A stretch of DNA of 64,000 nt from assembly GCF_009914755.1 (NCBI RefSeq), contig NC_060948.1. The stretch is one strand, 5' to 3'. The position numbers were made by a program, and so were the translations under genes. Below the pieces are notes generated by a model. That model saw only the letters and a list, made by a program, of their open reading frames with translations. It was not told where the DNA came from and did no database searches. This document shows positions 8,607 to 28,150 of the stretch, piece by piece (positions within the stretch are counted from its first letter, which is position 1; every line of letters begins with the position of its first letter). This DNA comes from the human T2T-CHM13v2.0 reference genome, Homo sapiens.

Positions 8607-11600
8607 ATGACAGGATCAAATTCACACATAACAATATTAACTTTAAAAGTAAATGGACTAAATGTTCCAATTAAAAGACACAGACTGGCAAATTGGATAA
8701 AGAGTCAACACCCATCAGTGTGCAGTATTCAGGAAACCCATCTCACGTGCAGAGACACACATAGGCTCAAAATAAAAGGATGGAGGAAGATCTACCAAGC
8801 AAATGGAAAACAAAAAAAGGCAGGGGTTGCAATCCTAGTCTCTGATAAAACAGACGTTAAACCAACAAAGACCAAAAGAGACAAAGAAGGCCACTACATA
8901 ATGGTAAAGGGATCAATTCAACAAGAAGAGCTAACTATCTTAAATATATATGCACCCAATACAGGAGCACCAAGATTCATAAAGCAAGTCCTGAGTGACC
9001 TACAAAGAGACTTAGACTCCCACACAATAATAATGGGAGACTTTAACACCCCACTGTCAACATTAGACAGATCAAAGAGACAGAAGGTTAACAAGGATAC
9101 CCAGGAATTGAACTCAGCTCTGCACCAAGCGGACCTAATAGACATCTGCAGAACTCTCCACCCCAAATCAACAGAATATACATTTTTTTTCAGCACCAAA
9201 CCACACTTATTCCAAAATTGACCACATACTTGGAAGTAAAGCTCTCCTCAGCAAATGTAAAAGAACAGAAATTATAACAAACTATGTCTCAGACCACAGT
9301 GCAATCAAACTAGAACTCAGGATTAAGAATCGCACTCAAAACCACTCAACTACATGGAAACTGAACAACCTGCTCCTGAAGGACTACTGGGTACATAACG
9401 AAATGAAGGCAGAAATAAAGATGTTCTTTGAAACCAACGAGAACAAAGACACAACATACCAGAATCTCTGGGACGCATTCAAAGCAGTGTGTAGAGGGAA
9501 ATTTATAGCACTAAATGCCCACAAGAGAAAGCAGGAAAGATCCAAAATTGACACCGTAACATCACAATTAAAAGAACTAGAAAAGCAAGAGCAAACACAG
9601 TCAAAAGCTAGCAGAAGGCAATAAATAACTAAAATCAGAGCAGAACTGAAGGAAATAGAGACACAAAAAACCCTTCAAAAAATTAATGAATCCAGGAGCT
9701 GGTTTTTTGAAAGGATCAACAAAATGATAGACCGCTAGCAAGACTAATAAAGAAAAAAAGAGAGAAGAATCAAATAGATGCAATAAAAAATGATAAAGGG
9801 GATATCACCACCGATCCCACAGAAATACAAACTACCATCAGAGAATACTAAAAACACCTCTATGCAAATAAACTAGAAAATCTAGAAGAAATGGATAAAT
9901 TCCTGGACACATACACTCTCCCAAGACTAAACCAGGAAGAAGTTGAATCTCTGAATAGACCAATAACAGGATCTGAAATTGTGGCAATAATCAATAGCTT
10001 ACCAACCAAAAAGAGTCCAGGACCAGATGGAATCACAGCCGAATTCTACCAGAGGTACAAGGAGGAACTGGTACCATTCCTTCTGAAACTATTCCAATTA
10101 ATAGAAAAAGAGGGAATCCTCCCTAACTCTTTTCCCGAGGCCAGCGTCATTCCGATACCAAAGCCAGGCAGAGACACAACAAAAAAAGAGAATTTTAGAC
10201 CAATACCCTAGATGAACACTGATGCAAAAATCCTCAATAAAATAATGGCAAAACGAATCCAGCAACACATCAAAAAGCTTATTCACCATGATCAACTGGG
10301 CTTCATTCCTGAGATGCAAGGCTGGTTGAATATATGCAAATCAATAAATGTAATCCAGCATATAAACAGAGCCAAAGACAAAAACCACACGATTCTCTCA
10401 ATAGATGCAGTAAAAGCCCTTGACAAAATTCAACAACCCTTCTGCTAAAAACTCTCAATAAATTAGGTATTGATGGGACGTATTTCAAAATAATAAGAGC
10501 TATCTATGACAAACCCACAGCCAATATCATACTGAATGGGCAAAAACTGGAAGCATTCCCTTTGAAAACTGGCACAAGACAGGGATGCCCTCTCTCACCA
10601 CTCCTATTCAACATAGTGTTGGAAGTTCTGGCCAGGGCAATTAGGCAGGAGAAGGAAATAAAATGTATTCAATTAGGAGAAGAGGAAGTCAAATTGTCCC
10701 TGTTTGCAGACGACATGATTGTGTATCTAGAAAACCCCATCGTCTCAGCTCAAAATCTCCTTAAGCTGATAAGCAACTTTAGCAAAGTCTCAGGATACAA
10801 AATCGATGTACAAAATACACAAGCATTCTTATACACCAACAACAAACAAACGGAGAGCCAAATCATGAGTGAACTCTCATTCACAATTGCTTCAAAGAGA
10901 ATAAAAAACCTAGGAATCCAACTTACAAGGGATGTGAATGACCTCTTCAAGGAGAACTACAAACCACTGCTCAAGGAAATAAAAGAGGATACAAACAAAT
11001 GGAAGAACATTCCATGCTCATGGATAGGAAGAATTAATATCGTGTAAATGGCCATACTGCCCAAGGTCAGTTACAGATTCAATGCCATCCCCATCAAGCT
11101 ACCAATGCCTTTCTTCACAGAATTGGAAAAAAAAACTTTAAAGTTCATATGGATCCAAAAAAGAGCCCACATTGCCAAGTCAATCCTAAACCAAAAGAAC
11201 AAAGCTGGAGGCGTCACACTACCTGACTTCAAACTATACTACAAGTCTACAGTAACCAAAACAGCATGGTACTGTTACCAAAACAGAGATATAGATCAAT
11301 GGAACAGAACAGAGCCCTCAGAAATAACGCCGCATATCTACAACTATCTGATCTTTGACAAACCTGAGAAAAACAAGCAATGGGGAAAGGATTCCCTATT
11401 TAATAAATGGTGCTGGGAAAACTGGTAGCCATATGTAGAAAGCTGAAACTGGATCCCTTCCTTACACCTTATACAAAAATCAATTCAAGATGGATTAAAG
11501 ACTTAAACGTTAGGCCTAAAACCATAAAAACCCTAGAAGAAAACCTAGGCTTTACCCTTCAGGACATAGGCATAGGCAAGGACTTCATGTCTAAAACACC

Positions 11601-12432
11601 AAAAGCAATGGCAACAAAAGACAAAATTGACAAACGGGATCTAATTTAACTAAAGAGCTTCTGCACAGCAAAAGAAACTACTGTCAGAGTGAACAGGCAA
11701 CCTACAAAATGGGAGAAAATTTTCACAACCTACTCATCTGACAAAGGGCTAATATCCAGAATCTACAATGAGCTAAAACAAATTTACAAGAAAAGAACAA
11801 ACAACCCCATCAAAAAGTGGGTGAAGGACATGAACAGACACTTCTCAAAAGAAAACATTTATGCAGCCAAAAAACACATGAAAAAATGCTCATCATCACT
11901 GGCCATCAGAGAAATGCAAATTAAAACCACAATGAGATATCATCTCACACCAGTTAGAATGGCAATCATTAAAAAGTCAGGAAACAACAGGTGCTGGAGA
12001 GGATGTGGAGAAACAGGAACACTTTTACACTGTTGGCGGGACTGTAAACTAGTTCAACCATTGTAGAAGTCAGTGTGGCGATTCCTCAGGGATCTAGAAC
12101 TGGAAATAGCATTTGACCCAGCCATCCCATTACTGGGTATATACCCAAAGGACTATAAATCATTCTGCTATAAAGACACATGCACACGTATGTTTATTGC
12201 AGCATTATTCACAATAGCAAAGACTTGGAACCAACCCAAATGTCCAACAATGATAGACTGGATTAAGAAAATGTGGCACATATACACCATGGAATACTAT
12301 GCAGCCATTAAAAATGATGAGTTCATGTCCTTTGTAGGGACATGGGTGAAATTGGAAATCATCGTTCTCAGTAAACTATCTCAAGAACAAAAAACCAAAC
12401 ACCGCATATTCTCACTCATAGGTGGGAATTGA
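8607..12432 (+). pseudogene. L1 ORF2p (EN/RT/C domain), disrupted by multiple stops and frameshifts
   Basis: Fragments run from MTGSNSHITIL through FADDMIVYL and CWRGCGE..HCW to the terminal IFSLIGGN*. Confidence 0.95.
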
Positions 12433-26200: not shown

Positions 26201-28150
26201 ATCACCACTCCTATTCAACATAGTGTTGGAAGTTCTGGCCAGGGCAATTAGGCAGGAGAAGGAAATAAAGGGTATTCAATTAGGACAAAACGAAGTCAAA
26301 TTGTCCCTGTTTGCAGATGACATGATTGTATATTTAGAAAACCCATTGTCTGAGCCCAAAATCTCCTTAAGCTGATAAGCAACTTCAGCAAAGTCTCAGG
26401 ACACAAAATCAGTGTACAAAAATCACAAGCATTCTTATACACCAATAACAGACAAACAGACAGCCAAATCATGAGTGAACTCCCATTCACAATTGCTTCA
26501 AAGAGAATAAAATACCTAGGAATCCAACTTACAAGGGATGTGAAGGACCTCTTCAAGTAGAACCACAAACCACTGTTCAATGAATGAAAAGAGGACACAA
26601 ACAAATAGAAAAACCTTCCATGCTCATGGGTAGGAAGAATCAATATCATGAAAATGGTCATACTGCCAAAGGTAATTTATAGATTCAATGCTATCCCCAT
26701 CAAGCCACCAATGACTTTCTTCACAGAATTGGAAAAAAACGACTTTAAAGTTCATACAGAACCAAAAAAGAGCCTGCATCGCCAAGTCAATCCTAAGCCA
26801 AAAGAACAAAGCCAGAGGCATCGTGCTACCTGACTTCAAACTATACTACAAAAAAGCATGGTACCGGTACCAAAACAGAGACATAGATCAATGGAACAGA
26901 ACAGAGCCCTCAGAAATAATGCATCATATCTACAACCATCTGATCTTTGACAAATCTGACAAAAACAAGCAATGAGTAAAGGGTTCCCTATTTAATAAAT
27001 GGTGCTGGGAAAACTGGCTAGCCATATGTAGACAGCTGAAACTGGATCACTTCTTTACACTTTATACAAAAATTAATTCAAGATGGATTAAAGACTTAAA
27101 CGTTAGACCTAGAACCATAAAAATCCTACAAGAAAACCTAGGCAATACCATCAGAACATAGGCATGGGCAAGGACATCATGTCTAAAACACCAAAAGCAA
27201 TGACAATAAAAGCCAAAATTGACAAATGGGATCTCATTAAACTAAAGAGCTTCTGCACAGCAAAAGAAACTACCGTCAGAGTGAACAGGCAACCTACAAA
27301 ATGGAAGCAAATGTTCACAACCTACTCATCTGACAAAGGGCTAATATCCAGAATCTATAATGAACTCAAACAAAATTTACAAGAAAAAAACAAACAACCT
27401 GAATCAAAAAGTGGGCAAAGGATATGAACAGACACTTCTCAAAAGAAGACATTTACGCAGCCAAAAAACACATGAAAAAATGCTCATCATCACTGGCCAT
27501 CAGAGAAATGCAAATCAAAACCACAATGAGACACCATCTCACACCAATTAGAATGGCGATCATTAAAAAGTCAGGAAACAACAGGTGCTGGAGAGGATGT
27601 GGAGAAATAGGCACACTTTTACACTGTTGGCGGGACTGTAAACTAGTTCAACCATTGTGGAAGTCAGTGTGGTGATTCCTCAGGGATCTAGAACTGGAAA
27701 TACCATTTGACCCAGCCATCCCATTACTGGGTATATACCCAAAGGATTATGAATCATGCTGCTATAAAGATTCATGCACACGTATGTTTATTCAGGCACT
27801 ATTCACAATAGCACAGACTTGGAACCAACCCAAATGTCCAACAATGATAGACTGGATTAAGAAAATGTGGCGCATATACACCATGGAATACTATGCAGCC
27901 ATAAAAAATGATGAGTTCATGTCCGTTGTGGGGACATGGATGAAACTGGAAACCATCAGTCTCAGCAAACTATCACAAGGACAAAAAAACAAACACCACA
28001 TGTTCTCACTCATAGGTGGGAATTGAACAATGAGAACACATGGACGCAGGAAGGGGAACATCACACTCTTGAGACTGTTGTGGGTTGGGGGGAGGCGGGA
28101 GGGGGGAGGGAAAAAAGAAAAAAAAGAGAAAAAAATAAATAATAAAAAAA
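23220..28150 (+). mobile_element. LINE-1 (L1PA3/4-like), 5'-truncated in ORF1 with a 126-bp 5' inversion and a shortened 3'UTR
   Basis: ORF1 and ORF2 fragments 23601-28026. PA3-type 3'UTR ('gagaacacatgg', 'aacatcacac'). TSD aagaaaaat(a/t)tt(a/g)gaagcatt at ~23199-23219 and ~28150-28170. Confidence 0.96.

What the first reader, a model, noticed from the sequence alone, without database searches (positions are those of the whole stretch)
8850..27640. Two independently inserted L1s share private mutations, including the same nonsense codon: probable ectopic gene conversion
Seen: the L1 at 6632-12646 and the L1 at 23220-28150 have different TSDs, 5' structures and 3'UTR subfamily diagnostics (PA2-type vs PA3-type). 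They nonetheless share an identical non-consensus tract 'ccaatacccTAGatgaacactgatgcaaaaatcctcaataaaataatggcaaaacg' (TAG at 10209-10211 and 25815-25817; consensus as I recall is atatccttgatgaacattg...aatactgg). Other shared variants are gacGttaa (8856/24461), gcaccAagatt (8972/24577), 'Gtcagagtg' (~11683/~27275) and tggCggg (12037/27631, a CpG gain). A functional source element is very unlikely to carry this ORF2 stop. Inference: repeated non-allelic gene conversion between direct repeats ~15.6 kb apart left a mosaic. The same pair is a substrate for NAHR deletion or duplication of the intervening ZNF pseudogene.
Basis: partly seen in the sequence, partly recalled or inferred. Interest (0 to 1): 0.8.

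Follow-up and report, generated by a model that had tools for sequence, protein, structure and literature searches.

The report
One short L1-to-L1 gene conversion patch
Two old, dead L1 retrotransposons 15.6 kb apart on the human Y chromosome share one 83-base patch, including the same stop codon, that was most likely copied from one to the other by ordinary DNA repair; the rest of the proposed mosaic does not hold up.

Summary
All the cited motifs are at the cited coordinates. Only one of them is private to the pair.

**What holds up**
- L1-A (6632-12646) and L1-B (23220-28150) are independent insertions. They have different target-site duplications, B has an inverted 5' end, and the flanks are not collinear.
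- The identical run at 10182-10264 / 25788-25870 carries five consecutive shared variants.
- The 19-mer with both the T>C and the in-frame TAG occurs only in A and B of the three Y amplicon copies. That compares with 5,796 copies of the common 19-mer, 68 with T>C only and 10 with TAG only.
- One short non-allelic gene conversion, fixed before or spread by the amplicon triplication, is the best explanation (about 0.75).

**What does not hold up**
- A and B are 92.1% identical, less alike than either is to most unlinked L1s.
- gacGttaa occurs in 46 other L1 copies and tggCggg in 62. The 8972 and 11683 variants occur in my panel of unlinked L1s.
- A and B share 6 exclusive variants. Control pairs share 4-6.
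- A run-length test alone is not significant.
- The PA2/PA3 labels look too young.
- The pair falls below published identity criteria for LINE-mediated NAHR.

This is an ordinary event of a known kind.

The parts
6632..12646 (+). L1-A, a full-length old L1PA element. ORF2 is broken many times: the longest open stretch in any + frame of 8610-12440 is 207 aa.
   Evidence: The duplicated word AAAAATCAC lies at 6622-6630 and 12642-12650.
23220..28150 (+). L1-B, truncated and inverted at its 5' end. It lacks about the last 135 bp of the L1 3' end and is more diverged than A. The longest open stretch in 24215-28040 is 287 aa.
   Evidence: A 20-bp duplication lies at 23200-23219 and 28151-28170 (2 mismatches).
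23218..23345 (-). Inverted 5' segment of L1-B. It matches A 7615-7746 in reverse at 87% identity. This is a twin-priming-type 5' inversion; that label is recalled, not tested.
10182..10264 (+). Copy of the shared tract in A: an 83-bp run identical to B. It is bounded by a 1-bp A-run indel and a discordant site at 10175 on one side and by 10265 on the other. The shared variants lie at 10206, 10210, 10219, 10245 and 10253.
25788..25870 (+). Copy of the shared tract in B. The shared variants lie at 25812, 25816, 25825, 25851 and 25859.
10209..10211 (+). In-frame TAG in the ORF2 remnant of A.
25815..25817 (+). The same TAG in the ORF2 remnant of B.

Best explanation
A single short non-allelic (ectopic) gene conversion copied a patch of at most about 83-89 bp, and at least 40-48 bp, between two independently inserted, already inactive L1 elements. 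The elements lie 15.6 kb apart in direct orientation in an AZFc amplicon of the Y chromosome.

Inferred mechanism: a break in one L1 was repaired by invading the paralogous L1 on the same or the sister chromatid, with a short stretch of synthesis. This replaced the acceptor's bases with the donor's private mutations, the TAG among them. The event was fixed before the amplicon became three copies, or was spread among them afterwards. The direction of transfer is unresolved.

Shown here: the shared tract, its uniqueness in the genome, the independent origin of the two L1s, and the statistical clustering of the shared variants. Inferred: the repair pathway, the timing and the direction.
For: (1) Independent insertions: different duplications, different 5' structures and non-collinear flanks.

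(2) Five consecutive shared non-majority sites at 10206-10253, among 388-412 variable sites. Permutation gives P = 1.4e-4 and 1.7e-4. Three consecutive sites unique to A and B among 234 unique sites give P = 0.0023.

(3) Genome-wide uniqueness. The 56-mer with up to 2 mismatches has 6 hits, all of them A or B in the three Y amplicon copies. The 19-mer with up to 1 mismatch has 91 hits. The double variant appears only in those six, against 68 with T>C alone and 10 with TAG alone. The common 19-mer has 5,796 hits. None of 24 fetched single-variant copies carries the downstream AATAATGG.

(4) Not a subfamily state. At 10206, 10210 and 10245, 0 of 27 A-like panel copies carry the A/B state, and the older L1s C and D carry the majority state. 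In 14 B-like copies the counts are 0 of 14, 0 of 14 and 1 of 14.

(5) No sign of shared ancestry elsewhere. A-B identity is 91.5-92.1%, at or below identity to unlinked copies (A 92.0-95.7%, B 91.1-93.3%). Only 3 exclusive shared sites lie outside the tract, and there are no shared indels.

(6) An in-frame stop is unlikely in a source element, since L1 proteins preferentially mobilise the RNA that encoded them (recalled knowledge).

(7) Precedent. Ectopic conversion clusters of 2-85 bp are reported in dispersed LTRs on the human Y (PMC4921805, abstract and section 5 read). The mean non-allelic tract length in humans is estimated at 250 bp, CI 63-1000 (bioRxiv 10.1101/135152, passages read).
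Against: A GENECONV-style test on run length alone is not significant for this tract: 34 matched variable sites, P = 0.22. Identical runs of 98 and 82 bp occur elsewhere in the same pair. Unlinked control pairs give P values as low as 0.007. The case therefore rests on the shared rare variants, not on tract length.

Two of the five shared sites are ordinary polymorphisms among L1 copies: 10219-C in 3 of 27 and 10253-A in 9 of 27. The 10245-type variant recurs once in 14 B-like copies.

No orthologues from other species or other human Y chromosomes were available, so neither non-reciprocity, direction nor date is shown. A donor that is absent from this one assembly cannot be excluded.
Confidence: 0.75

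Rival explanations
1. Both L1s, or one of them, received the patch from a third L1 donor that has since been lost or is absent from this assembly. This is still gene conversion, but not between A and B.
For: Direction and donor cannot be determined here. Donors on other chromosomes are documented for Y-linked LTRs (PMC4921805, abstract read).
Against: No other copy of the haplotype exists in the 3.1-Gb assembly: 6 of 6 hits are A or B copies. This reading needs two conversions from a vanished donor where one would do.
Confidence: 0.1
2. Hidden lineage: A and B descend from the same rare source element that already carried the tract, or one is a trans-mobilised copy of the other.
For: Both are L1PA-type elements with some shared polymorphic states, for example 8972-A in 4 of 27 panel copies and 9027-A in 10 of 27.
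Against: A and B are no closer to each other than to unlinked L1s. All the private shared variants beyond background sit within 48 bp of about 4.7 kb. The genome holds no other members. The source would have carried an ORF2 stop.
Confidence: 0.06
3. Repeated conversion between A and B has produced a mosaic, with further tracts around 8856, 8941-9038, 10328, 11683 and 12037.
For: The longest identical run, 8941-9036, has 41 matched variable sites, P = 0.05. A and B alone in the panel combine 8972-A with 9027-A. The g2 amplicon copy of A is identical to B over 9545-9621, where the other two copies of A differ from B at 2 sites.
Against: B is equally identical to unlinked L017 and L018 over 8894-9026, P = 0.02-0.03. 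The 8856-G and 12037-C variants occur in 46 and 62 other copies. The 10328-G state occurs in 2 of 49 other copies and 11683-G in 3 of 41. Each of these sites has discordant neighbours close by. The count of exclusive shared sites equals that of control pairs.
Confidence: 0.12
4. Chance parallel mutation, or an assembly or polishing artefact.
For: Each single variant does recur elsewhere: 68 and 10 copies of 5,796.
Against: From the frequencies of about 1.2% and 0.17%, the expected number of double variants in the whole genome is about 0.1. Two neighbours that also share a third rare variant are far less likely still (my arithmetic). The tract is present in all three amplicon copies of both elements. 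At 92% identity, long reads should not be misplaced between A and B (inference).
Confidence: 0.03

Closest known systems
Ectopic gene conversion among dispersed LTR elements on the human Y chromosome (Trombetta et al. 2016, PMC4921805)
   Same: Short clusters of co-transferred variants, 2-85 bp in that study, between non-allelic interspersed repeats on the non-recombining Y. They are recognised as closely spaced variants with a single history.
   Different: Here the repeats are L1s rather than LTRs. The event is fixed in all three amplicon copies and is inferred from one genome, not from a Y-chromosome phylogeny. No polymorphism data are available.
Gene conversion between neighbouring Alu elements (reviewed in PMC8230782 and PMC6598467, passages read)
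   Same: Non-allelic conversion between nearby retrotransposon copies, detected from non-diagnostic shared mutations. The effect is reported to act within about 10 kb and to fall with distance.
   Different: The partners here are about 5-6 kb elements, 15.6 kb apart and only 92% identical. Only one patch is detectable.
Non-allelic gene conversion between duplicated genes (Harpak et al., bioRxiv 10.1101/135152)
   Same: The tract length is compatible with their estimate of a mean 250 bp, CI 63-1000.
   Different: The paralogues here arose by separate retrotranspositions, not by segmental duplication. They are more diverged than pairs that undergo sustained concerted evolution.

Membership tests
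Non-allelic gene conversion tract | The two partners are paralogues at distinct loci with independent origins. | tested here: met
   Different target-site duplications, different 5' structures and non-collinear flanks.
Non-allelic gene conversion tract | A contiguous block of shared derived variants bounded by discordant sites. | tested here: met
   Five shared sites in a row at 10206-10253, between discordant sites at 10175 and 10265. Permutation P = 1.4e-4.
Non-allelic gene conversion tract | The shared variants are not family or subfamily states. | tested here: met
   Three of the five are in 0 of 27 panel copies. The haplotype is unique genome-wide. The other two are ordinary polymorphisms, in 3 of 27 and 9 of 27.
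Non-allelic gene conversion tract | An unusually long identical fragment, the GENECONV-type criterion. | tested here: not met
   34 matched variable sites, P = 0.22. Control pairs reach P = 0.007.
Non-allelic gene conversion tract | Phylogenetic incongruence, direction or non-reciprocity shown with orthologues or population data. | not testable with these tools
   Only the one human assembly is searchable.
   No repeat library is held. A differs from the majority state of 27 copies at 163 of 4749 sites (3.4%) and B at 281 of 4749 (5.9%, inflated by a misaligned tail). The best unlinked matches are 92-96% and 89-94%. These values are higher than I recall for PA2/PA3.
LINE pair as NAHR substrate (Startek et al. 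2015 criteria) | >4 kb aligned and >95% identity, in direct orientation. | tested here: not met
   Direct orientation and 4.74 kb aligned are met, but identity is 92.1% and the longest perfect match is 98 bp. The criteria are from PMC4344489.

The most novel reading that the evidence does not exclude
The A/B pair is a recurrent conversion site that stayed active after the amplicon was triplicated. In the g2 copy, A has been reset to the B-like state over 9545-9621, with a new mutation 9 bp beyond that stretch. If so, private L1 variants of this kind could serve as dated markers of AZFc amplicon history and of conversion between 92%-identical repeats.
Probability: 0.15. Interest if true: 0.35.

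Novelty: new member of a known kind. Interest (0 to 1): 0.2.

Why it matters
The finding has little functional weight. Both L1s are long dead, so the shared stop codon changes nothing. There are three modest points of value. First, conversion can still leave a detectable patch between dispersed repeats only about 92% identical and 15.6 kb apart on the male-specific Y. Second, such patches can mislead subfamily or age calls based on a few diagnostic sites. Third, the patch marks an event older than, or homogenised across, the three amplicon copies that carry TTTY17.

Tried and rejected
- **Whole-element similarity.** A-B identity is not raised relative to 27 unlinked L1s, so broad homogenisation is rejected.
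- **Count of exclusive shared variants.** A-B has 6. Controls have 4-6, so the number alone is uninformative.
- **An apparent B-C cluster of 3 exclusive variants.** This turned out to be one homopolymer indel misaligned by MAFFT, so it is an artefact.
- **Direction of transfer.** Local density of private mutations gave P = 0.64 for A alone and P = 0.06 with the shared sites added to A. States in 14 B-like copies were mixed, 5 of 14 and 4 of 14. Direction stays unresolved.
- **Second tract at 8941-9038.** P = 0.05, but B matches unlinked L017 and L018 equally well there. Not accepted.
- **Linkage of 8856-G with 12037-C as a hidden subfamily.** By my comparison of the two hit lists, only 1 of the 46 other 8856-G copies, on contig C5 near 45.60 Mb, also has the 12037-C 21-mer at the right spacing. 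Rejected.
- **Literature.** Five full-text searches were run. None of the titles and abstracts listed, nor the passages I read, described this L1 pair. That is not proof that it is unpublished.
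Full report
**Setting**

The window lies in AZFc on the T2T Y chromosome (hub annotation). BLAST of the first L1 against the window finds four L1 copies.
- A (6632-12646, + strand) is full length.
- B (23220-28150, + strand) aligns to A over 7731-12509 / 23343-28103 at 91.2%. 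Its 5' piece at 23218-23345 is inverted.
- C (about 48089-53798, - strand) and D (1-2474, - strand, cut by the window edge) are older copies.

A starts with the usual L1 5' end. It is flanked by AAAAATCAC at 6622-6630 and 12642-12650. B is flanked by a 20-bp duplication at 23200-23219 and 28151-28170 with 2 mismatches. Two kilobases of flank on each side give only two ~290-bp, 71-74% hits in opposite orientation.

**The observation**

The 56-mer is exact at both cited places. The TAG is in the ORF2 frame. All four other cited variants are shared at the cited coordinates. Both ORF2 remnants are otherwise badly broken. The longest open stretches are 207 aa in A and 287 aa in B, with 60 or more stops in each fixed frame. 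The TAG is thus one lesion among many.

**Are the shared variants private?**

I fetched 27 unlinked L1 copies, the best genome matches to A 8800-12500 (40 of 23,807 candidates scored). I aligned them with A, B, C and D.
- A is 92.0-95.7% identical to the panel copies.
- B is 91.1-93.3% identical to them.
- A and B are only 91.5% identical to each other, or 92.1% (4369 of 4742 columns) once B's misaligned A-rich tail is left out.

So there is no global excess similarity between A and B.

Against the majority state of the panel, the 4749 comparable sites divide as follows:

| Class | Sites |
|---|---|
| A and B share a non-majority state | 24 (7 at CpG) |
| Only A differs | 131 |
| Only B differs | 249 |
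| Both differ, in different ways | 8 |

Of the 24 shared sites, 17 are also present in 1-11 panel copies. These include 8972-A (4 of 27) and 11683-G (2 of 27). Six have no panel support: 8856, 10206, 10210, 10245, 10328 and 12037.

Genome-wide pattern counts show that two of these six are recurrent.
- The 21-mer with 8856-G has 52 hits, 46 of them outside the six A/B amplicon copies.
- The 21-mer with 12037-C has 68 hits, 62 of them outside.
- In a wider set of 51 fetched loci, 10328-G occurs in 2 of the 49 that could be scored.

As an empirical null, I counted variants exclusive to each pair of sequences in the alignment. A-B has 6, B-C 6, B-L013 5, A-C 5, B-L010 4 and B-D 4. A and B share no indels.

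**The one real anomaly**

Ordered along the element, the variable sites show a single run of five shared sites: 10206, 10210, 10219, 10245 and 10253. The run is bounded by discordant sites at 10175 and 10265. It sits inside an 83-bp run of identity at 10182-10264.
- Shuffling the site labels gives a run of 5 or more in 0.017% of 100,000 trials, or 0.014% in the trimmed set.
- For the strictly unique sites, a run of 3 or more arises in 0.23% of trials.

The haplotype is unique genome-wide.
- The 56-mer with up to 2 mismatches has 6 hits, all on the Y. They form three pairs about 15.6 kb apart, which are A and B in three amplicon copies.
- The 19-mer spanning 10206 and 10210, with up to 1 mismatch, has 91 hits. 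The double variant appears only in those six. Sixty-eight copies have T>C alone, 10 have TAG alone and 7 have other single changes.
- The common 19-mer has 5,796 hits.

The 24 single-variant copies I fetched sit in varied L1 backgrounds, and none carries AATAATGG. Fourteen B-like copies, taken from B's own best matches, show 0 of 14, 0 of 14 and 1 of 14 for the three rare states. The older copies C and D carry the common states. The tract is therefore shared by descent between A and B alone, confined to at most 89 bp, and not inherited from a subfamily.

**Mechanism**

A short non-allelic gene conversion explains all of this. Independent parallel mutation is excluded by the frequencies above. 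A shared source lineage should leave private shared variants along the whole 4.7 kb, should leave other copies in the genome, and would need a source carrying an ORF2 stop.

The tract is identical in all three amplicon copies of both elements. The event therefore preceded the triplication or was spread by exchange between amplicons.

Direction is unresolved. Adding the shared sites to A gives a borderline local cluster (P = 0.06), and A alone gives none (P = 0.64). B's higher divergence fits five donor mutations in 83 bp slightly better. The two polymorphic sites are mixed in both panels.

The repair pathway, synthesis-dependent strand annealing after a break, is inferred from general knowledge and is not shown here.

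**Evidence against, and limits**

A run-length test of the GENECONV kind on 1,894 variable sites gives P = 0.22 for this tract and P = 0.05 for the longest A-B fragment, 8941-9036. Unlinked control pairs reach P = 0.007. B matches unlinked L017 and L018 over 8894-9026 at P = 0.02-0.03.

Tract length alone therefore proves nothing, and the candidate second tract is not accepted. That remains so even though A and B are the only sequences in the panel that combine 8972-A with 9027-A.

A control cluster seen for B-C was a misaligned 1-bp homopolymer indel. Only one genome could be searched. No repeat library was available for subfamily calls.

The PA2 and PA3 labels look too young given the divergences above. 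My recalled subfamily divergences would place A around PA3-PA4 and B older, but this was not tested.

The NAHR claim is also weak. The pair has 92.1% identity and a longest perfect match of 98 bp. That is below the >95% identity over >4 kb used to define LINE pairs at risk (PMC4344489, abstract and passages read).

**Comparison with what is known**

- Ectopic conversion between dispersed repeats on the human Y has been demonstrated for LTRs, with clusters of 2-85 bp (PMC4921805, abstract and section 5 read).
- Conversion between neighbouring Alus is reviewed in PMC8230782 and PMC6598467 (passages read).
- The mean non-allelic tract length in humans is estimated at 250 bp, CI 63-1000 (bioRxiv 10.1101/135152, passages read).
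- A 2026 pangenome preprint lists gene conversion among the processes that blur old L1 histories (PMC13192797, one passage read).

The present case is one more instance of this known process. It is notable only for the low identity of the partners and for carrying a stop codon along with it.

**Verdict**

This is an ordinary event of low interest.

Noticed in passing
window 9545-9630 (L1-A) and its copies in loci L008 and L009: The three amplicon copies of A differ at 11 substitution columns in 6.7 kb. Three of the differences specific to the g2 copy lie within 75 bp. At 9556 and 9600 the g2 copy has the common, B-like state where the other two copies have G and G (panel 27 of 27 C and T). This makes the g2 copy identical to B over 9545-9621. 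It also has a private T>A at 9630. This could be a later short conversion, or two mutations on the other branch.
   Followed up: partly
window 7342-12364 versus loci L008 and L009: Derived states are shared in conflicting ways among the three amplicon copies of A. Copies 1+3 share them at 8724, 9556 and 9600. Copies 1+2 share them at 11795 and 12364. Copies 2+3 share one at 10041. This implies exchange between amplicons or reversions, not a simple tree.
   Followed up: partly
window 28040-28150: L1-B ends in the G-rich stretch of the 3' UTR followed by an A-rich tail. It lacks about the last 135 bp present in A (A 12510-12646). This may reflect early polyadenylation or a later deletion.
   Followed up: no
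window 1-2552: L1-D (- strand, cut by the window start) has an adjacent 78-bp piece at 2475-2552 in the opposite orientation. The piece matches the L1 segment just upstream (A 9024-9101). This is a second 5'-inverted L1 in the window.
   Followed up: no
window 10099-10312: A carries 11 private substitutions around the tract, including a triple change at 10134-10136 (CCC, against TAT in all 29 other sequences). The density is suggestive of clustered mutation near the conversion site but is not significant on its own: P = 0.64, or 0.06 with the shared sites added.
   Followed up: partly
loci L011 and L012 (contig C9, about 42.4 Mb and 77.3 Mb): These two panel L1s share 76 exclusive variants. 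They are copies of one insertion carried by a segmental duplication, not independent insertions.
   Followed up: no
G000 contig C5, about 45,602,476 and 45,605,655: One unlinked L1 carries both the 8856-G and the 12037-C 21-mers at the same spacing as in A and B. It is the only one of the 46 other 8856-G copies to do so.
   Followed up: no
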